Below, one piece after another: positions 561-13,403 of a stretch of 16,264 nt of DNA. A program made the position numbers and the translations under genes. The stretch is from UHGV virus genome UHGV-0349264; one strand, given 5' to 3'. The stretch's first letter is position 1. Each line of letters begins with the position of its first letter. The notes below the pieces were generated by a model. That model was given only the letters and a program-made list of their open reading frames with translations. It had not been told where the DNA came from and did not search any database. The DNA is from a virus.

Positions 561-1033
561 ACCTCAATCTCTCTGACCGTTCCGCCAGCTTCTTTGAATT
601 TTGCAATCAGACTGTCAGCCTTATGCTCGAACTGACCATAACCAGCGCCCGGCAGTGAAGCCCAGATATTGCTGCAACGGTCGATTGCCTGACGGATATC
701 GCCACGGTCAATCATCGGTAAAGCGCCACGCTCTTTAATCTGCTGCAGTGCCACAGCGTCCTGGCTTTTGGGAGAGAAGTCTTTCAGGCCAAGCTGCTTG
801 CGGTAGGCATCCCACCAACGGGAAAGAAGCTGGTAGCGTCCGGCGGCTGTTGATTTGAGTTTGGGGTTTAGCGTGACAAGTTTACGAGGGTGATCGGAGT
901 AATCAGTGAATAGCTCTCCTCCTACAATGACGTCATAACCATGATTTCTGGTTTTCTGCCGTCCGTTATCAGTTCCCTCTGACCATGCCAGCATATCGAG
1001 GAACGCCTTACGTTGATTATTGATTTCCACCAT
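557..1033 (-). CDS. R: Endolysin, lambda R-type lytic transglycosylase
   Basis: 158-aa product ([35 protein letters not shown]...) is near-identical to lambda R as recalled. It overlaps the holin upstream and Rz downstream. Confidence 0.95.
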
Positions 1034-1340
1034 CTTCTACTCCGGCTTTTTTAGCAGCGAAGCGTTTGATAAGCGAACCAATCGAGTCAGTACCGATGTA
1101 GCCGATGAACACGCTCGTTATATAAGCGAGATTGCTACTTAGTCCGGCGAGGTCGAGAAGATCACGAATGAACCAGGCGATAATGGCGCACATCGTTGCG
1201 TCGATTACTGTTTTTGTAAACGCACCACCATTATATCTGCCGCGAAGGTACGCCATTGCAAACGCAAGGATTGCCCCGATGCCTTGTTCCTTTGCCGCGA
1301 GAATGGCGGCTAACAGGTCATGTTTTTCTGGCATCTTCAT
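1017..1340 (-). CDS. S: Class I holin, lambda S-type with dual-start motif
   Basis: 107-aa product starting [32 protein letters not shown]..., with three TM segments and a charged C-terminus. The Met-Lys-Met dual start is typical of S107/S105. Confidence 0.95.
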
Positions 1341-1582
1341 GTCTTACCCCCAATAAGGGGATTTGCTCTATTTAATTAGGAATAAGGTCGATTACTGATA
1401 GAACAAATCCAGGCTACTGTGTTTAGTAATCAGATTTGTTCGTGACCGATATGCACGGGCAAAACGGCAGGAGGTTGTTAGCGCGACCTCCTTCCACCCG
1501 CTTTCACGAAGATCATGTGTAGAAGGCCGCAGCATAACTATCACTGATGAATTCAGGATAGCCATTGGCTACGGCTCAGTTA

Positions 1583-1658
1583 TGGTGCTGGTTAACGGAC
1601 TTGAACCGCTACCCATTCGCTTACAAGGCGACTGCTCTACCATTGGAGCTAAACCAGC
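1583..1658 (-). tRNA. tRNA-like gene, anticodon UGU (Thr), with encoded CCA
   Basis: Hand-folded 76-nt cloverleaf on the minus strand: acceptor GCTGGTT/AACCAGC (7 perfect bp), D-arm GCTC-CAATGGTA-GAGC, anticodon arm GTCGC-CTTGTAA-GCGAA, T-arm AGCGG-TTCAAGT-CCGTT, discriminator A, CCA. Confidence 0.7.
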
Positions 1659-1663
1659 ATGTT

Positions 1664-1738
1664 TGGCGGGACAGCGTGGACTCGAACCACGATAAGAAGG
1701 TTAACAGCCTTCCGTAATGACCTTTATACGACTGACCC
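1664..1738 (-). tRNA. tRNA-like gene, anticodon GUU (Asn), with encoded CCA; one acceptor-stem mismatch
   Basis: 75-nt cloverleaf: acceptor GGGTCAG/CTGTCCC (U4-U68 mismatch), D-arm GTAT-AAAGGTCA-TTAC, perfect anticodon stem GAAGG/CCTTC with loop CTGTTAA, perfect T-arm CGTGG-TTCGAGT-CCACG, discriminator G, CCA. It starts 3 nt after the tR' T-tract. Confidence 0.6.
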
Positions 1739-1740
1739 AA

Positions 1741-1801
1741 AGAAAAAATCCCGAAACAGTTCGCAGGTAATAGTTAGAGCCTGCACAACGGTTTCGGGAT
1801 T
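1741..1801 (-). terminator. tR'-like intrinsic terminator ending the short pR' transcript
   Basis: Minus strand reads AATCCCGAAAC...GTTTCGGGATT followed by TTTTTT: an 11-bp stem with a large loop and a U-tract, about 190 nt downstream of the pR' -10. Confidence 0.7.
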
Positions 1802-1941: not shown

Positions 1942-1970
1942 AATTTACCCAACTTTATTCAATAAGTCAA
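1942..1970 (-). promoter_or_regulatory. Late promoter pR' (-35 TTGACT, 17-nt spacer, -10 TAAATT)
   Basis: Minus strand reads TTGACT-tattgaataaagttggg-TAAATT, immediately downstream of the Q stop codon. Confidence 0.65.
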
Positions 1971-2012: not shown

Positions 2013-2636
2013 CTAACGTGTGACCGCATTCAAAATGTTGTCTGCGATTGACTCTTCCTTGTGGCATTGCACCACCAGAGCGTCATACAGCGGCTTAACA
2101 GTGCGTGACCAGGTTGGTTGGGTAAGGTTGGGTATTAGCATCGTCACAGCGCGATATGCTGCGCTTGCTGGCATCCTTGAATAGCCGACGCCTTTGCATC
2201 TTCCGCACTCTTTCTCGACAACTCTCCCCCACAGCTCTGTTTTGGCAATATCAACCGCACGGCCTGTACCATGGCAATCTCTGCATCTTGCCCCCGGCGT
2301 CGCGGCACTACGGCAATAATCCGCATAAGCGAATGTTGCGAGCACTTGCAGTACCTTTGCCTTAGTATTTCCTTCAAGCTTTGCCACACCACGGTATTTC
2401 CCCGATACCTTGTGTGCAAATTGCATCAGATAGTTGATAGCCTTTTGTTTGTCGTTCTGGCTGAGTTCGTGCTTACCACAGAATGCAGCCATTCCGAATC
2501 CGGCTTGTGATTGCGCCATCCCCATAGCAGCCATCACATCAGTACCGGAAAGAGAGTCAGAAGCCGTAGCCCGTGGTGAGTCGCTCATCATCGGGCTTTT
2601 TGGCGAATGAAATTTAGCTACGCTTTCGAGTCTCAT
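2013..2636 (-). CDS. Q: Late-gene antiterminator Q (lambda type)
   Basis: 207-aa product MRLESVAKFHSPKSPMMSDSPRATASDSLSGTDVMAAM... with the Cys-rich zinc-binding region (CRDCHGTGR...CGRCKGVGY). It matches lambda Q as recalled and lies directly upstream of pR'. Confidence 0.95.
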   Translation of the reverse strand: MRLESVAKFHSPKSPMMSDSPRATASDSLSGTDVMAAMGMAQSQAGFGMAAFCGKHELSQNDKQKAINYLMQFAHKVSGKYRGVAKLEGNTKAKVLQVLATFAYADYCRSAATPGARCRDCHGTGRAVDIAKTELWGRVVEKECGRCKGVGYSRMPASAAYRAVTMLIPNLTQPTWSRTVKPLYDALVVQCHKEESIADNILNAVTR

Positions 2637-5181: not shown

Positions 5182-7575
5182 TCATACGTCAGCCCCTTGT
5201 GCATATCGTCTGCCACGTGCAGCAGGTGCATTTGATGTTGTGCAAATCTGTCTGGCTTCATCCTGGTCACATGCAACAAAGTGTCCGTTGCAGAACCGCT
5301 GGTAAACCGTACCAAGCGAGCCAAAACGGTTTTTTGTCACAATGATTTCAGCAAATGGCGCGGCGCTACTGTTCTCGTCATATACCGCTTCCCGATAGAG
5401 CATGATGATTGAGTCTGCGTCCTGTTCAATGCTTCCTGAATCACGCAAATCTGCGTTTGTCGGGCGTTTGTTTGGTCGCTTCTCAACATCGCGCGAAAGC
5501 TGACTCAGGGAGATAACAGGCGTTTTCAGGTCTTTCGCCATCGCCTTCAGGCTTCCGGAGATGTGAGCAATTGCGAGATCGTTGCGATCTGCTTTAGGCT
5601 TCTCAATCAGGCCAAGATAATCCACCATGATGAGTGACAGGTTTGGATTTTCCTGTTTATGCCGTTCTGCGATTGAGCGTATTTCTTCGACCGATAACCG
5701 AGAGGCATCGACTACCCATACATCCAAATCTGCAAGCTGACTCATGCCGTTAGCAACACGCGCCCAGCCTTCGTCATCCATCGATGCAGGATTTCGCAGT
5801 ACGCTAACCGACATCCTCCCGGCGTTGGCAATGCTTCGCTCTGCAATCTGCAATGCGCTCATTTCCATTGAGAAAATCAATACCCCGCGCCGGACGTCAG
5901 AACCAGGAATAACGCGGCTTGCCACGCCTTCGGCAATCTTCAGCGCCAGTTCCGTATTGTGCGTAACGATGTAATCCGTTGTCACATAGAGATGACTAGG
6001 ATGGCTTACCATGATGCAGAGACACTCTTCTGGCTCAACAACTTCAACCGATTTGATACCCACACCAAGGTTACCAAGCCTGTTAATCCCGAGATTTTTA
6101 CGTAAACGTGGTGAGTGAATTTGCTCTATCAAAGATGATGGCAACTTCATGCTGACCATGTGTGCGTCAAGTCCGGCATGCTTCTCTCCTTTGTACGTGT
6201 AAACTATTCCCGTCCTGCTGGATTCTTTGGCGGTTCCACCTAAAGATCTAACAAGCCTTACTAATCCTTTAGCTAATTTCTGACTTGATGAACTAAAGCG
6301 GATGCATCCGGACTTCTCAACCCAGCCATCTGTCTCGAGCAGGCCAGTTAAAACACCGGTACGTATTTCTTTGCTAGCACTAAAAATTTCTTCTGGGATT
6401 TCCTTCTCGGACGCACCTTTCCCGATCACCCCAATGCCACGTAGTTTGTCCAATAGTGGGTTCTTCTGGCCTTTTTGGTTACTTATCAAATAATCATTCT
6501 CTCCTACCTTAACCAGTCGCAGTGGTGCAATTGCATCACTCATGCGGCTCAGGACATATTCTTCCGAGTTGGTGAATTTGATGCCTTTTATCAACGAACC
6601 GTCACCAAGTAGAGCCCCAATAACCCAACCATCAAGGGGAATATTTTTACCAAAGTCTCCGGTCAAGGATGGCACTCTTATTCTTCCCTGATAACGTGTT
6701 TTTTGTAGCATCCCAGCCAGCGCATCAGTATCAACAACGCGTTTACCAGTAAATCTTGATGATGAAATTTCCCATAAGTGGTTGTCGGCACATTTCACGC
6801 TACGTCCGTCTTCAAAGGTGACTAAATATGTGAATTTCTTCCCTTGCGGGAAGACGCCAATTACCTCCGAAGGAAGCCCGTCTATTGACGCGATGCGATC
6901 GCCAATTTTGACTTCTCCGTGAGTAGTCCAGGTGCCATCTGCAAGTAAAATCCCTTCGCTTAGCGCCATTGCTTTCCCCATACCAGGACGAGCAGCGATT
7001 ATCACAAGGTCTTCTGCGTTCATCCCTCCGGTGATGGCATCAAGTTCTTCGATTCCGGTCTTCAGGGTATCTGACTCTTCTCCGTTCCTCAGACGCCTGT
7101 CAAGCGTGTCAGTGTAGTCAGTGATGATTTCCCCTAACCGCACCGGTTTAACCTCGTCACGGGGCTTTCTGATGGCTGAGAGACGCTTTACAAGCTCATC
7201 CATCGCCTGACTCGATGCGTCGATGGTTCCGCTCCGAATTGGTTCACGCATTTCATCCATGATTTCCAGCACCAGACGGCGGTGATAGTTATCCGCGACC
7301 ATTCCGGCATATCCCTTCAGGTTTGCGGCACTCGGGCAGTTTTTGCTGGTCATCAGGATTGACGTGAAATGCTCCTCTCCGCACTCCTCGGCAACCAGCA
7401 GCGCGTCGATTAGGTTTCTGTTTCTCGCCTGCTTGCGGATAACCTCGAAGGCTTTTCTGTAGAGCGGAATTGAAAACGCTTCCGGCTCAAGCGTTGCCAG
7501 AACGTCACTGGCGGTTGGAGTTAATCCACCAATCAGCAAGCCACCGATAACGCTCGCTTCGATATCCTGTCTCAT
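5182..7575 (-). CDS. dnaB: DnaB-family replicative helicase interrupted by an in-frame intein in the Walker A P-loop
   Basis: 797-aa ORF. Residues 1-201 (ending ..[13 protein letters not shown]) and 541-797 ([64 protein letters not shown]) align with the DnaB N- and C-terminal domains. Extein total is 458 aa, similar to P22 gp12-type helicases. Confidence 0.9.
5956..6972 (-). other. Intein (339 aa) with LAGLIDADG homing-endonuclease domain, inserted between Lys and Thr of the helicase P-loop
   Basis: The insert begins [15 protein letters not shown] right after GMGK and ends ..DYIVTHN, followed by Thr that restores GMGK-T. Two LAGLIDADG-like motifs are present ([23 protein letters not shown]). 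Block B reads H-L-W, block F contains ECLC, and block G reads T-H-N. Confidence 0.75.
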
Positions 7576-13010: not shown

Positions 13011-13120
13011 GTTTTACAGATAACTGGTCAGACGAAGAATTCATTCGTCAGATGAACAAAATGCTCAATCAGCACAAAGAACAGGAGAAAGATGATGATT
13101 CTGACTCTGAATGATAAGCG
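13007..13120 (+). CDS. Possible 37-aa acidic peptide
   Basis: ATGA start/stop overlap with the cIII-like gene. Hand-translated MSFTDNWSDEEFIRQMNKMLNQHKEQEKDDDSDSE. Confidence 0.3.
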
Positions 13121-13403
13121 TGAAATATCGCAAATAATCGCAAGTTTTACTGATGAAGATTACGAACGAATCAACAGTGAAGTTGATCGCCTCTGCAAAC
13201 GTTGCGACCCAATAAGCGAAATGCTTCGCTCATATAAACCAGATGAACACACTAAGGACGCTGTCGACTGGCTGGAAGATGATGACTGTAACTATCAGGA
13301 AAAAGCCGCTGAATGGTTCTGGGATGCAATAACCGAAAGAGTTAAGGCTGAATATGCCTTCGCAATATTCAAACGCAGACATATTTATGGAGAAGCAGCA
13401 TGA
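13092..13403 (+). CDS. Hypothetical 103-aa acidic protein immediately upstream of, and coupled to, recT
   Basis: Clean ORF whose stop overlaps the recT start (ATGA). Contains CKRC and DDDC motifs. Function unknown. Confidence 0.6.
   Translation: MMILTLNDKREISQIIASFTDEDYERINSEVDRLCKRCDPISEMLRSYKPDEHTKDAVDWLEDDDCNYQEKAAEWFWDAITERVKAEYAFAIFKRRHIYGEAA

What the first reader, a model, noticed from the sequence alone, without database searches (positions are those of the whole stretch)
1583..1738. Two tandem tRNA-like genes (Thr-UGU and Asn-GUU) inserted between tR' and the holin gene
Immediately after the tR' U-tract are two back-to-back cloverleaf sequences, 75 and 76 nt, separated by 5 nt, each with an encoded CCA. 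They lie on the late-transcript strand, so they would be expressed by Q-mediated read-through together with the lysis genes, analogous to the tRNA genes seen downstream of Q in Shiga-toxin phages. As I recall the lambda sequence, the flanks (pR', 6S region, the approach to S) are lambda-like while this segment is not, which suggests a cassette replacement. The upstream copy has a U-U mismatch in its acceptor stem and an imperfect D-stem, so it could be a decaying or suppressor-like copy.
Basis: partly seen in the sequence, partly recalled or inferred. Interest (0 to 1): 0.5.

Follow-up and report, generated by a model that had tools for sequence, protein, structure and literature searches.

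The report
Phage 21-type Asn/Thr tRNA cassette
These are two genuine phage tRNA genes (Asn-GUU and Thr-UGU) sitting between the late terminator and the lysis genes of a lambda-like phage; they are identical to those of phage 21, whose Thr tRNA was recently shown to replace the host tRNA that the rival phage P2 destroys, so the finding is real but already known.

Summary
ARAGORN and Rfam both call tRNA-Asn(GUU) at 1664-1738 and tRNA-Thr(UGU) at 1583-1658, both on the minus strand. That is the late-transcript strand, because the window is reverse-oriented relative to lambda. The genes are 75 and 76 nt, 5 nt apart, each with an encoded CCA, and they start 3 nt after the tR' U-tract.

About 160 nt of lambda sequence is replaced, not added to, and the boundaries fall at the tRNA ends. 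Both tRNAs are base-for-base identical to phage 21's. The same cassette is annotated in 369 of 5426 complete E. coli genomes and described in Sf6, SfI and ST64T.

The upstream copy is not decaying. Across about 125 loci the stems change by compensatory substitutions, while the odd mismatches (Asn U4.U69 and U13.U22, Thr G27.A43) are retained.

Govande et al. 2025 showed that phage 21's tRNA-Thr resists the P2 Old nuclease and rescues cells from it. Old kills by cutting host tRNA-Thr(UGU). The Asn partner's role is inferred: host tRNA-Asn(GUU) is a secondary target of PARIS AriB. Codon supplementation remains a compatible rival. Verdict: already known, low interest.

The parts
2013..2636 (-). 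Q late-gene antiterminator (lambda type), upstream of the cassette
   Evidence: Pfam PF03589 Antiterm, E 6e-58. The Q-S interval is about 95% identical to lambda outside the cassette.
1942..1970 (-). pR' late promoter (TTGACT-17-TAAATT)
   Evidence: The only sigma-70-like site on either strand in 1300-2100. Identical to the lambda sequence in the alignment.
1739..1800 (-). tR' intrinsic terminator (end of the 6S RNA): 10-bp outer stem ATCCCGAAAC/GTTTCGGGAT, inner hairpin, U-tract. The inner 33 nt (1758-1790) are inverted relative to lambda.
   Evidence: RNAfold gives -28.1 kcal/mol for the hairpin. The inner segment matches the reverse complement of lambda's at 32/33 positions and the forward orientation at 8/33.
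1664..1738 (-). tRNA-Asn(GUU), 75 nt, encoded CCA, discriminator G73, U4.U69 and U13.U22 non-standard pairs, anticodon stem GAAGG/CCUUC
   Evidence: ARAGORN. Rfam 55.3 bits. Identical to phage 21. Covariation across 20 alleles.
1659..1663 (-). 5-nt inter-tRNA spacer (AACAT)
   Evidence: Read from the sequence. A 5-nt spacer occurs in 96 of 117 arrays that have a second tRNA.
1583..1658 (-). tRNA-Thr(UGU), 76 nt, encoded CCA, G1-C72 and C2-G71, anticodon stem GUCGC/GCGAA with a G27.A43 mismatch (4 bp) and no CNG motif; equals 'tRNA-Thr21'
   Evidence: ARAGORN. Rfam 61.5 bits. Identical to phage 21. Covariation. Anticodon-arm comparison. Experimental data for tRNA-Thr21 in PMC12445682.
1341..1582 (-). 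Lambda-homologous leader between the cassette and the S start; homology to lambda resumes at about 1581
   Evidence: Alignment with lambda.
1017..1340 (-). S holin, the first late gene downstream of the tRNAs
   Evidence: Pfam PF05106, E 7e-30.

Best explanation
The segment is the phage 21-type late-operon tRNA cassette: two functional elongator tRNA genes, Asn(GUU) then Thr(UGU). They are transcribed from pR' only when Q lets RNA polymerase read through tR', and are then cut out of the late transcript by the host tRNA-processing enzymes.

The Thr tRNA decodes ACA in place of the host's single tRNA-Thr(UGU) (ThrU). Its anticodon arm lacks the paired CNG motif and has a shortened stem (G27.A43). 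Because of this it survives the Toprim nuclease Old of prophage P2, which kills lambda-infected cells by amputating the anticodon arm of ThrU. Late-protein synthesis can therefore continue.

The Asn tRNA most likely does the same job for host tRNA-Asn(GUU). That host tRNA is a slower substrate in the P2-Old comparison and a secondary but biologically relevant target of the related nuclease AriB of PARIS.

Steps shown here: the genes, their position, their identity to phage 21, conservation of the cloverleaf, and conservation of the unusual anticodon-arm features.
Steps shown by others on the identical Thr sequence: protection from Old toxicity and resistance to cleavage in vitro.
Steps inferred: Q-dependent expression and processing, benefit at the level of the phage, and everything about the Asn copy.
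For: - Real tRNAs.
- Identity to phage 21: both tRNAs are 100% identical to AJ237660.
- Experimental data on that sequence (PMC12445682): phage 21's tRNA-Thr(UGU), 'tRNA-Thr21', protected cells against P2-OLD. It was not cleaved without ATP, and cleavage was much reduced at 150 mM K+, with Site 1 nearly fully resistant. [quoted passage not shown] All of these features match the window sequence.
- Host versus window anticodon stems: host thrU (ACUGA/UCAGU) and asnT (GCGGA/UCCGU) both carry the paired CNG motif; both window tRNAs lack it.
- AriB: it cleaves host Lys(UUU), Thr(UGU) and Asn(GUU) at 40|41 within U36-A-A-U-C. Changes at positions 39 and 41 make T5 tRNA-Lys resistant (PMC12409363). 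The window tRNAs read UAAGCG (Thr) and UAACCU (Asn), so both differ at 39 and 41.
- Selection: G27.A43 is retained in 20/20 Thr alleles while the acceptor stem changes compensatorily (4 pairs, 15 cells, 0/500 shuffles). For Asn, 5 pairs and 22 cells change compensatorily (0/500).
- Conserved architecture: the cassette follows a terminator U-tract in 107/124 loci, behind at least three unrelated terminator/Q modules. The only promoter-like site is pR'.
- Recurrence: the same Asn->Thr tandem occurs in the unrelated temperate phage P1.
- Broader pressure on this tRNA: Thr(UGU) is also a secondary target of the prophage nuclease HepS, which lambda-type tail tips activate (PMC13043305).
Against: - Rescue by phage tRNA-Thr was only partial. 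[quoted passage not shown]
- The tests used plasmid-expressed tRNA, not a phage carrying the cassette.
- The phage 21 Asn tRNA has not been tested against any nuclease.
- About a fifth of Asn loci carry the stem GCAGG/CCUGC, which restores a paired CNG (CAG/CUG). CNG avoidance is therefore not conserved for Asn.
- The cassette lacks tRNA-Lys(UUU), which is required to bypass PARIS of strain B185.
- No Gam or Abc2 homologue, the known Old trigger, was found in the part of the pL operon inside the window.
- Q itself has 4 ACA codons and must be translated before the tRNAs can be made.
- ACA is 2-3 times more frequent in lambdoid genes than in the host sample, so plain supplementation would also be useful.
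Confidence: 0.65

Rival explanations
1. Codon supplementation is the main function. The tRNAs simply raise the supply of tRNA-Thr(UGU) for the rare ACA codon, and of tRNA-Asn, during the burst of late-protein synthesis, independent of any nuclease. This is compatible with the best explanation and could act together with it.
For: - ACA per 1000 codons: window ORFs 16.0, HK446 late genes 11.2 and early genes 17.9, against 5.4 in a 50-kb K-12 sample.
- SfI authors report ACA at 17.3% against 7.1% in the host (PMC3636060).
- Phage L authors note that 24 of 25 Asn codons in the capsid gene are AAC (PMC8022706).
- HK446 late genes are Asn-rich: 51 per 1000 against 38 per 1000 in K-12.
- Expanded arrays add Arg(UCU) and Gly(UCC), which also read rare A-ending codons.
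Against: - Lambda, which lacks the cassette, has the same ACA excess (late 10.3, early 15.7 per 1000), so carriage does not track codon usage.
- ACA is richest in early genes, which are translated before a late-operon tRNA exists.
- The SfI authors found no Asn codon bias and called the Asn gene's significance unclear.
- From general knowledge, E. coli has four Asn tRNA genes, so Asn supply is unlikely to be limiting.
- Supplementation does not explain why the G27.A43 mismatch is kept in 20/20 alleles, or why positions 39 and 41 differ from the host in both tRNAs.
- Over-expressing host tRNA-ThrU gave little or no protection from Old.
Confidence: 0.3
2. The upstream (Asn) copy, or both copies, are decaying pseudogenes or suppressor-type tRNAs.
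For: The Asn copy has two non-standard pairs and a lower Rfam score (55.3 bits) than host asnT (72.6 bits).
Against: - The mismatches are fixed features of the family (4:69 in 19/20 alleles, 13:22 in 20/20), while five other pairs change compensatorily.
- The window allele is the commonest one (81 of 124 loci).
- The anticodon GUU, U33, A37, G18-G19, the T-loop GGUUCGAGUCC, G73 and the CCA are all intact.
- The score is above that of the genuine host tyrU (53.4 bits).
- The anticodons are sense anticodons, not suppressors.
Confidence: 0.03
3. The tRNAs mainly serve as RNA-processing punctuation. RNase P and RNase E cleavage at the cloverleaves would separate the 6S/qut leader from the lysis mRNA, or interact with an antisense transcript, with decoding being secondary.
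For: - The position is invariant, immediately after the terminator and before the holin, behind different Q modules.
- Antisense signal opposite the tRNAs was reported in a Kapi1 lysogen and in BTP1 (PMC12922286).
Against: - Lambda and many relatives express the same lysis genes without any tRNA at this site.
- Anticodons and synthetase identity elements are strictly conserved, which pure punctuation would not require.
- tRNA-Thr21 needs to function as a tRNA to rescue; an anticodon requirement was shown for the analogous Thr6.
- No promoter-like site was found on the opposite strand.
Confidence: 0.05

Closest known systems
Phage 21 late-operon tRNA pair (tRNA-Asn, tRNA-Thr21), GenBank AJ237660
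   Same: Both tRNAs and the spacer are 100% identical over 156 nt. Same order, and the same position immediately after the short terminated late leader RNA (the 'aRNA' in phage 21, 6S in lambda).
   Different: The upstream module differs: Q21/pQ/aRNA in phage 21 versus lambda Q/pR'/tR' here. The tRNAs are not annotated in the phage 21 record.
Asn(GUU)+Thr(UGU) tandems downstream of Q in Sf6, SfI, ST64T, PS3, HK446, mEp506, Kapi1 and prophages of E. coli and Salmonella
   Same: Same cassette at 96-100% identity. Described in PMC3636060, PMC8022706 and PMC8787464. PGAP annotates it as tRNA-Thr | tRNA-Asn in 369 of 5426 complete E. coli genomes.
   Different: The virion modules differ (sipho-, podo- and myovirus) and so do the Q types. 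Some relatives have altered arrays: phage L has Asn plus a 72-nt second gene that ARAGORN does not call, and a Klebsiella phage has Asn-Phe-Thr-Arg.
Nuclease-resistant phage tRNAs of T5 and other coliphages that neutralise PARIS AriB, P2 Old and retron-Eco7 PtuAB
   Same: Same logic: same anticodon as the targeted host tRNA, with substitutions in the anticodon stem at or near the cut sites.
   Different: Those are mostly large tRNA sets in virulent phages. This is a minimal two-tRNA module in a temperate phage under late (Q) control, and it lacks tRNA-Lys(UUU).
P1 tRNA-Asn / tRNA-Thr tandem (AF234172, 69348-69501)
   Same: Same two anticodons, same order, adjacent genes (2-nt spacer), and also in a temperate coliphage.
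   Different: The sequences are only distantly similar (Thr about 80%). P1 Thr keeps a paired CUG/CAG motif and a full 5-bp stem. The genomic context differs (C1-controlled ban region).
Stx-phage tRNA genes downstream of Q (ileZ-argN-argO of 933W; cited from general knowledge, not fetched here)
   Same: Same positional class: tRNA genes between Q/tR' and the late genes of a lambdoid phage.
   Different: Different tRNAs (Ile and Arg rare-codon readers) and an unrelated sequence.

Membership tests
Bacterial elongator tRNA (Rfam RF00005) | Cloverleaf scoring above the curated gathering score of 29 bits | tested here: met
   61.5 bits (Thr) and 55.3 bits (Asn), both full-length model matches. ARAGORN calls both. 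Genuine host tRNAs score 53-75 bits.
Bacterial elongator tRNA (Rfam RF00005) | Stems maintained by compensatory substitutions among homologues | tested here: met
   Asn: 5 pairs and 22 cells with changes on both sides, 0/500 shuffles, and no more than 2 such cells in any slid control. Thr: 4 pairs and 15 cells, 0/500 shuffles. Caveat: Asn columns 8-38 were fixed by the search pattern, and the alleles are closely related.
tRNA-Asn (AsnRS substrate) | Anticodon G34-U35-U36 and discriminator G73 (identity rules taken from the established literature) | tested here: met
   The sequence shows GUU and G73 followed by CCA. G at column 72 in 19 of 20 alleles. Aminoacylation itself is not testable with these tools.
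tRNA-Thr (ThrRS substrate) | G1-C72, C2-G71, G35 and U36 (identity rules taken from the established literature) | tested here: met
   All are present. The 1:72 GC and 2:71 CG pairs are invariant in 20/20 alleles. Function of the identical sequence in E. coli is implied by its rescue activity (PMC12445682).
Lambdoid late-operon Asn-Thr cassette (phage 21 / Sf6 / SfI type) | Located between Q with its terminator and the holin gene, in the order Asn then Thr, with high sequence identity to the phage 21 genes | tested here: met
   Gene order Q, pR', tR', Asn, Thr, S. 100% identical to phage 21. 95 of 126 related loci have Asn-Thr, mostly with a 5-nt spacer.
Nuclease-resistant replacement tRNA (anti-P2-Old) | Same anticodon as the targeted host tRNA, altered paired CNG motif AND shortened anticodon stem | tested here: met
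   Thr: UGU anticodon, no CNG on either strand, and G27.A43 giving a 4-bp stem. These are the two features the paper shows to be jointly required. Asn: no CNG in the window allele, but a full 5-bp stem, so only one of the two features is present.
Nuclease-resistant replacement tRNA (anti-P2-Old) | Experimentally resists cleavage and rescues cells or phage | not testable with these tools
   Reported for the identical tRNA-Thr21 sequence when expressed from a plasmid (PMC12445682). Not reported for the Asn gene or for a phage carrying the cassette.
Nuclease-resistant replacement tRNA (anti-PARIS AriB) | Substitutions at or around the 40|41 cut site within U36-A-A-U39-C40|N41, and the full target set Lys+Thr(+Asn) supplied | tested here: inconclusive
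   Positions 39 and 41 differ from the host in both tRNAs (Thr UAAGCG, Asn UAACCU). The cassette has no tRNA-Lys(UUU), which is required against PARIS of strain B185. Cleavage was not tested.

The most novel reading that the evidence does not exclude
The Asn-Thr pair is a matched, minimal counter-defence module. Both tRNAs, not only Thr, would be nuclease-hardened replacements tuned to the overlapping target set of OLD-family Toprim tRNases carried by P2-like prophages and P4-like satellites (P2 Old; PARIS AriB). The module would be placed under Q control so that it rescues late-protein synthesis, and it would move as a unit between lambdoid phages by recombination exactly at the tRNA ends. 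This would explain why the 'unexplained' Asn gene always travels with Thr, and why the same pairing arose in P1. It would also give lambdoid phages a route to resist P2 interference without losing Gam or Red.
Probability: 0.35. Interest if true: 0.5.

Novelty: already known. Interest (0 to 1): 0.22.

Why it matters
The cassette is a compact, widespread example of a temperate phage carrying tRNAs for phage-versus-phage warfare rather than only for codon tuning. It occurs in about 7% of complete E. coli genomes. The Thr half of that story was published in 2025 for this exact sequence. What remains open is modest. Does the Asn partner play the same role? Does the cassette protect a phage rather than a plasmid-bearing cell? 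For annotation, the tRNAs are missing from several reference records, including the HK446 RefSeq entry, the phage 21 record AJ237660 and phiv205-1.

Tried and rejected
- **Is lambda's alternative segment a degraded tRNA pair?** It is about 163 nt, nearly the same length as the cassette. ARAGORN finds nothing. Rfam at E<=10 finds no tRNA-like match. The alignment is at chance level. Rejected.
- **Can codon usage discriminate the hypotheses?** ACA is enriched equally in a carrier (HK446) and a non-carrier (lambda), so it cannot separate supplementation from counter-defence.
- **Does the window encode an Old trigger?** PHROGs, Pfam and BLASTP against lambda Gam found no Gam or Abc2 homologue. The pL operon runs off the window, so this is inconclusive.
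- **First IMG/VR pattern scan.** It had one N too many and found nothing. The corrected scan gave 120 or more loci.
- **Papers and files not available.** Supplementary files of PMC12445682 are not held, so the printed tRNA-Thr21 sequence could not be checked. Identity rests on the GenBank phage 21 record and on the described features (C28U/G42A, short stem) matching. Lindahl 1970 (PMC283090) and Sargen & Helaine 2024 (PMC11840918) are not held. I could therefore not check whether phage 21 itself plates on P2 lysogens.
- **Independent promoter for the tRNAs.** None was found.

Full report
**1. The observation**

ARAGORN finds exactly two tRNA genes in the 16,264-base window. They are tRNA-Thr(UGU) at 1583-1658 and tRNA-Asn(GUU) at 1664-1738, both on the minus strand. 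Rfam's tRNA model gives 61.5 bits (E 1.8e-11) and 55.3 bits (E 8.6e-10) against a gathering score of 29, and these are the only Rfam hits in the window. With the same model, E. coli K-12 thrU scores 73.8, asnT 72.6, glyT 64.9 and tyrU 53.4. The window genes therefore score lower than their host counterparts but fall inside the range of genuine tRNAs.

The sequence shows lengths of 75 and 76 nt, a 5-nt spacer and an encoded CCA on each gene. The Asn gene starts 3 nt after the U-tract of a strong hairpin. The window is the reverse complement of the lambda map. Q (2013-2636), S (1017-1340), R (557-1033) and Rz (93-560) are all minus-strand, so the tRNAs lie on the late-transcript strand in the order Q, pR', tR', Asn, Thr, S. 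The only sigma-70-like site on either strand between 1300 and 2100 is pR' (TTGACT-17-TAAATT, 1970->1942).

**2. Replacement, not insertion**

The Q-S interval is about 95% identical to lambda on both sides. Lambda covers only 78% of it, in two pieces, with the same overall length (711 versus 715 nt). In the pairwise alignment, identity holds through the tR' stem and U-tract, collapses to chance level, and resumes at window position about 1581, which is 2 nt beyond the CCA of the Thr gene. About 161 nt (1582-1742) therefore stands in place of about 163 nt of unrelated lambda DNA, and the junctions coincide with the tRNA ends. Lambda's alternative segment has no tRNA signal by ARAGORN or by Rfam at E<=10.

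**3. What it is related to**

The 156-nt cassette is 100% identical to phage 21 (AJ237660). There it sits directly after the short terminated late leader ('aRNA') and is not annotated. It is 96-100% identical in HK446, mEp506, phiv205-1, Kapi1 and many Salmonella P22-like phages. It is present in 369 of 5426 complete E. coli genomes, annotated as tRNA-Thr | tRNA-Asn.

The literature already describes it. [quoted passage not shown] See also phage L (PMC8022706) and Kapi1 (PMC8787464).

Pattern scans seeded on the Asn D-arm and anticodon arm returned 6 species-representative genome contigs and at least 120 IMG/VR contigs. Of these 126 loci, 95 carry Asn-Thr. The rest carry Asn alone, Asn-Gly(UCC), Asn-Phe-Thr-Arg(UCU) and similar arrays. 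The window alleles are the commonest ones: Asn in 81 of 124 loci and Thr in 60 of 106. In 107 of 124 loci a run of T lies within 20 nt upstream of Asn. At least three unrelated terminator modules precede the cassette: the phage 21/P22 type, lambda tR', and a Klebsiella type. The cassette is a mosaic module that recombines at its own edges.

**4. Not decaying**

I tested the cloverleaf on 20 distinct alleles of each gene. For Asn, five pairs show changes on both sides (22 cells), and 0 of 500 shuffles reach the observed covariation score or cell count. The two non-standard positions are family features: 4:69 is non-standard in 19/20 alleles and 13:22 in 20/20. For Thr, four pairs co-vary (15 cells, 0/500 shuffles), and G27.A43 is unpaired in 20/20 alleles.

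There are two caveats. Asn columns 8-38 were fixed by the search pattern. The alleles are also closely related, so the shuffle counts are not probabilities. The slid-partner controls are nevertheless near zero.

Identity elements known from the literature are present and invariant: for Asn, G34-U35-U36 and G73; for Thr, G1-C72, C2-G71, G35 and U36. The anticodons are ordinary sense anticodons, so 'suppressor-like' does not apply.

**5. How it most likely works**

Govande et al. 2025 (PMC12445682) showed that the P2 Old protein kills during P2-lambda interference by cutting off the anticodon arm of host tRNA-Thr(UGU), called ThrU. [quoted passage not shown] Phage tRNA-Thr(UGU) genes rescue the cell because they resist cleavage and replace ThrU. 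Resistance requires both an altered CNG motif and a shortened anticodon stem.

They tested phage 21's tRNA explicitly. [quoted passage not shown] It was not cut without ATP, and Site 1 was almost completely resistant. [quoted passage not shown]

The window gene is that sequence. Host thrU has the arm ACUGA-CUUGUAA-UCAGU. The window Thr has GUCGC-CUUGUAA-GCGAA, with U28-A42, a G27.A43 mismatch and no CNG on either strand. For the Thr gene, the mechanism is therefore experimentally established on the identical RNA, though from a plasmid and with only partial rescue.

**6. The Asn partner**

Here the mechanism is inference. Host asnT (GCGGA/UCCGU) also carries the paired CNG motif. It was one of three tRNAs compared with ThrU in the Old kinetics experiment, where ThrU was cleaved fastest.

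Independently, AriB, the Toprim effector of PARIS, depletes Lys(UUU), Thr(UGU) and Asn(GUU). It cuts at 40|41 in the context U36-A-A-U-C. T5 versions of all three tRNAs are needed for full rescue, and changes at positions 39 and 41 make T5 tRNA-Lys resistant (PMC12409363).

The window tRNAs read UAAGCG (Thr) and UAACCU (Asn) at positions 36-41, so both differ from the host at 39 and 41. The window Asn stem GAAGG/CCUUC has no CNG.

Several points count against a simple story. About a fifth of Asn loci have GCAGG/CCUGC, which restores a paired CNG. The Asn stem is a full 5 bp. The cassette has no tRNA-Lys. No nuclease assay exists for this Asn.

Two observations support a shared selective pressure. 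The unrelated temperate phage P1 also carries an adjacent Asn(GUU)->Thr(UGU) pair. Thr(UGU) is also a secondary target of a third prophage nuclease, HepS, which lambda-type tail tips trigger (PMC13043305).

**7. The rival: codon supplementation**

ACA occurs at 16.0 per 1000 codons in the window's ORFs. It is 11.2 (late) and 17.9 (early) in the carrier HK446, and 10.3 and 15.7 in lambda, which lacks the cassette. In a 50-kb K-12 sample it is 5.4.

Lambdoid phages therefore depend heavily on the single-copy ThrU. That makes supplementation useful, and it also explains why ThrU is a good target. Carriage does not track codon usage, and the richest ACA users are early genes translated before a late-operon tRNA exists. 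Over-expressed host ThrU does not protect from Old. Asn content is higher in HK446 late genes (51 versus 35-38 per 1000), but this is one genome.

I regard supplementation as compatible and probably contributory. It does not explain the conserved anticodon-arm peculiarities.

**8. Verdict**

The feature is already known. It is annotated in hundreds of genomes, described in several phage papers, and the function of the identical Thr gene has been demonstrated. Two questions remain open: the role of Asn, and protection at the level of the phage. Both are directly testable with a lambda strain carrying this 161-nt segment.

Noticed in passing
window 1758-1790 (within the tR' hairpin, 1739-1800, minus strand): The inner 33 nt of the tR' terminator hairpin are inverted relative to lambda: 32/33 match the reverse complement and 8/33 the forward orientation. 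The 10-bp outer stem arms and the overall fold are preserved (-28.1 versus -29.2 kcal/mol). In IMG/VR loci that have the lambda-type tR' upstream of the cassette, the loop is in the lambda orientation, so both orientations exist in nature. This looks like a flip by recombination between the inverted stem arms.
   Followed up: partly
window 5956-6972 (minus strand), inside ORF 5182-7575: The DnaB-type replicative helicase is 797 aa. It equals HK446 DnaB (458 aa, 95-99% identical) plus a 339-aa insert exactly in the Walker A loop (GMGK|...|TELALK). The insert starts AMALSEG (Ala1), ends VTHN followed by Thr, and contains a LAGLIDADG homing-endonuclease domain. It is probably an intein; the Ala1 plus W/C/T pattern resembles class 3 inteins (recalled from memory).
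   Followed up: partly
L134 (IMG/VR) region around the cassette; also 8 loci with Asn-84 nt-Gly(UCC), e.g. L016 5473-5706: One Thr allele is a chimera. Nucleotides 1-25 are the phage Thr gene and 26-76 are identical to host thrU, followed by a glyT-like tRNA-Gly(UCC). This suggests recombination between the phage cassette and the host thrU-tyrU-glyT operon.
   Followed up: partly
L002 681-752 (Salmonella phage L cII-101): In P22-like phages of the L/ST160 type, the second gene of the cassette is a 72-nt sequence annotated tRNA-Leu(UAA). ARAGORN does not call it and it does not fold into a clean cloverleaf. It may be a degenerate or atypical derivative at the Thr position.
   Followed up: partly
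L003 601-920 (Klebsiella phage ST16-OXA48phi5.2): This is an expanded array, Asn-Phe(GAA)-Thr-Arg(UCU), downstream of Q. Its Asn and Thr genes are homologous to the window's and show compensatory stem changes. Related arrays with Gly(UCC) occur in IMG/VR.
   Followed up: partly
L007 1425-1578 (phage P1, AF234172 69348-69501): P1 carries an adjacent tRNA-Asn(GUU)->tRNA-Thr(UGU) tandem in the same order, with a 2-nt spacer. The sequences are only distantly similar, and the P1 Thr keeps the paired CUG/CAG motif.
   Followed up: partly
L009 (HK446, NC_019714) about 35100-35260; L004 1501-1656 (phage 21, AJ237660): The tRNA genes are missing from the feature tables of the HK446 RefSeq and GenBank records, the phage 21 record and phiv205-1, although the sequence is present. 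This is an annotation gap.
   Followed up: no
window 13092-13403 (+): A 103-aa ORF of unknown function (phrog_3486, no Pfam hit) lies between cIII and RecT, where kil and gam sit in lambda. No Gam or Abc2 homologue was detected in the window's pL operon. The recombination module is RecT plus Sipho_Gp157 rather than Red.
   Followed up: partly
L013 (contig labelled MAG Segatella copri) and L017 (contig labelled MAG Collinsella sp.): Short contigs binned into Bacteroidota and Actinomycetota MAGs carry the enterobacterial Asn-Thr cassette. They are most likely mis-binned lambdoid phage or prophage contigs.
   Followed up: no
window 1341-1740, plus strand: A published transcriptome of a Kapi1 lysogen reports a clear antisense signal opposite the tRNAs and the small ORF before the holin, with a similar signal in Salmonella prophage BTP1 (PMC12922286). 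The consensus scan found no promoter-like site on the plus strand here.
   Followed up: no
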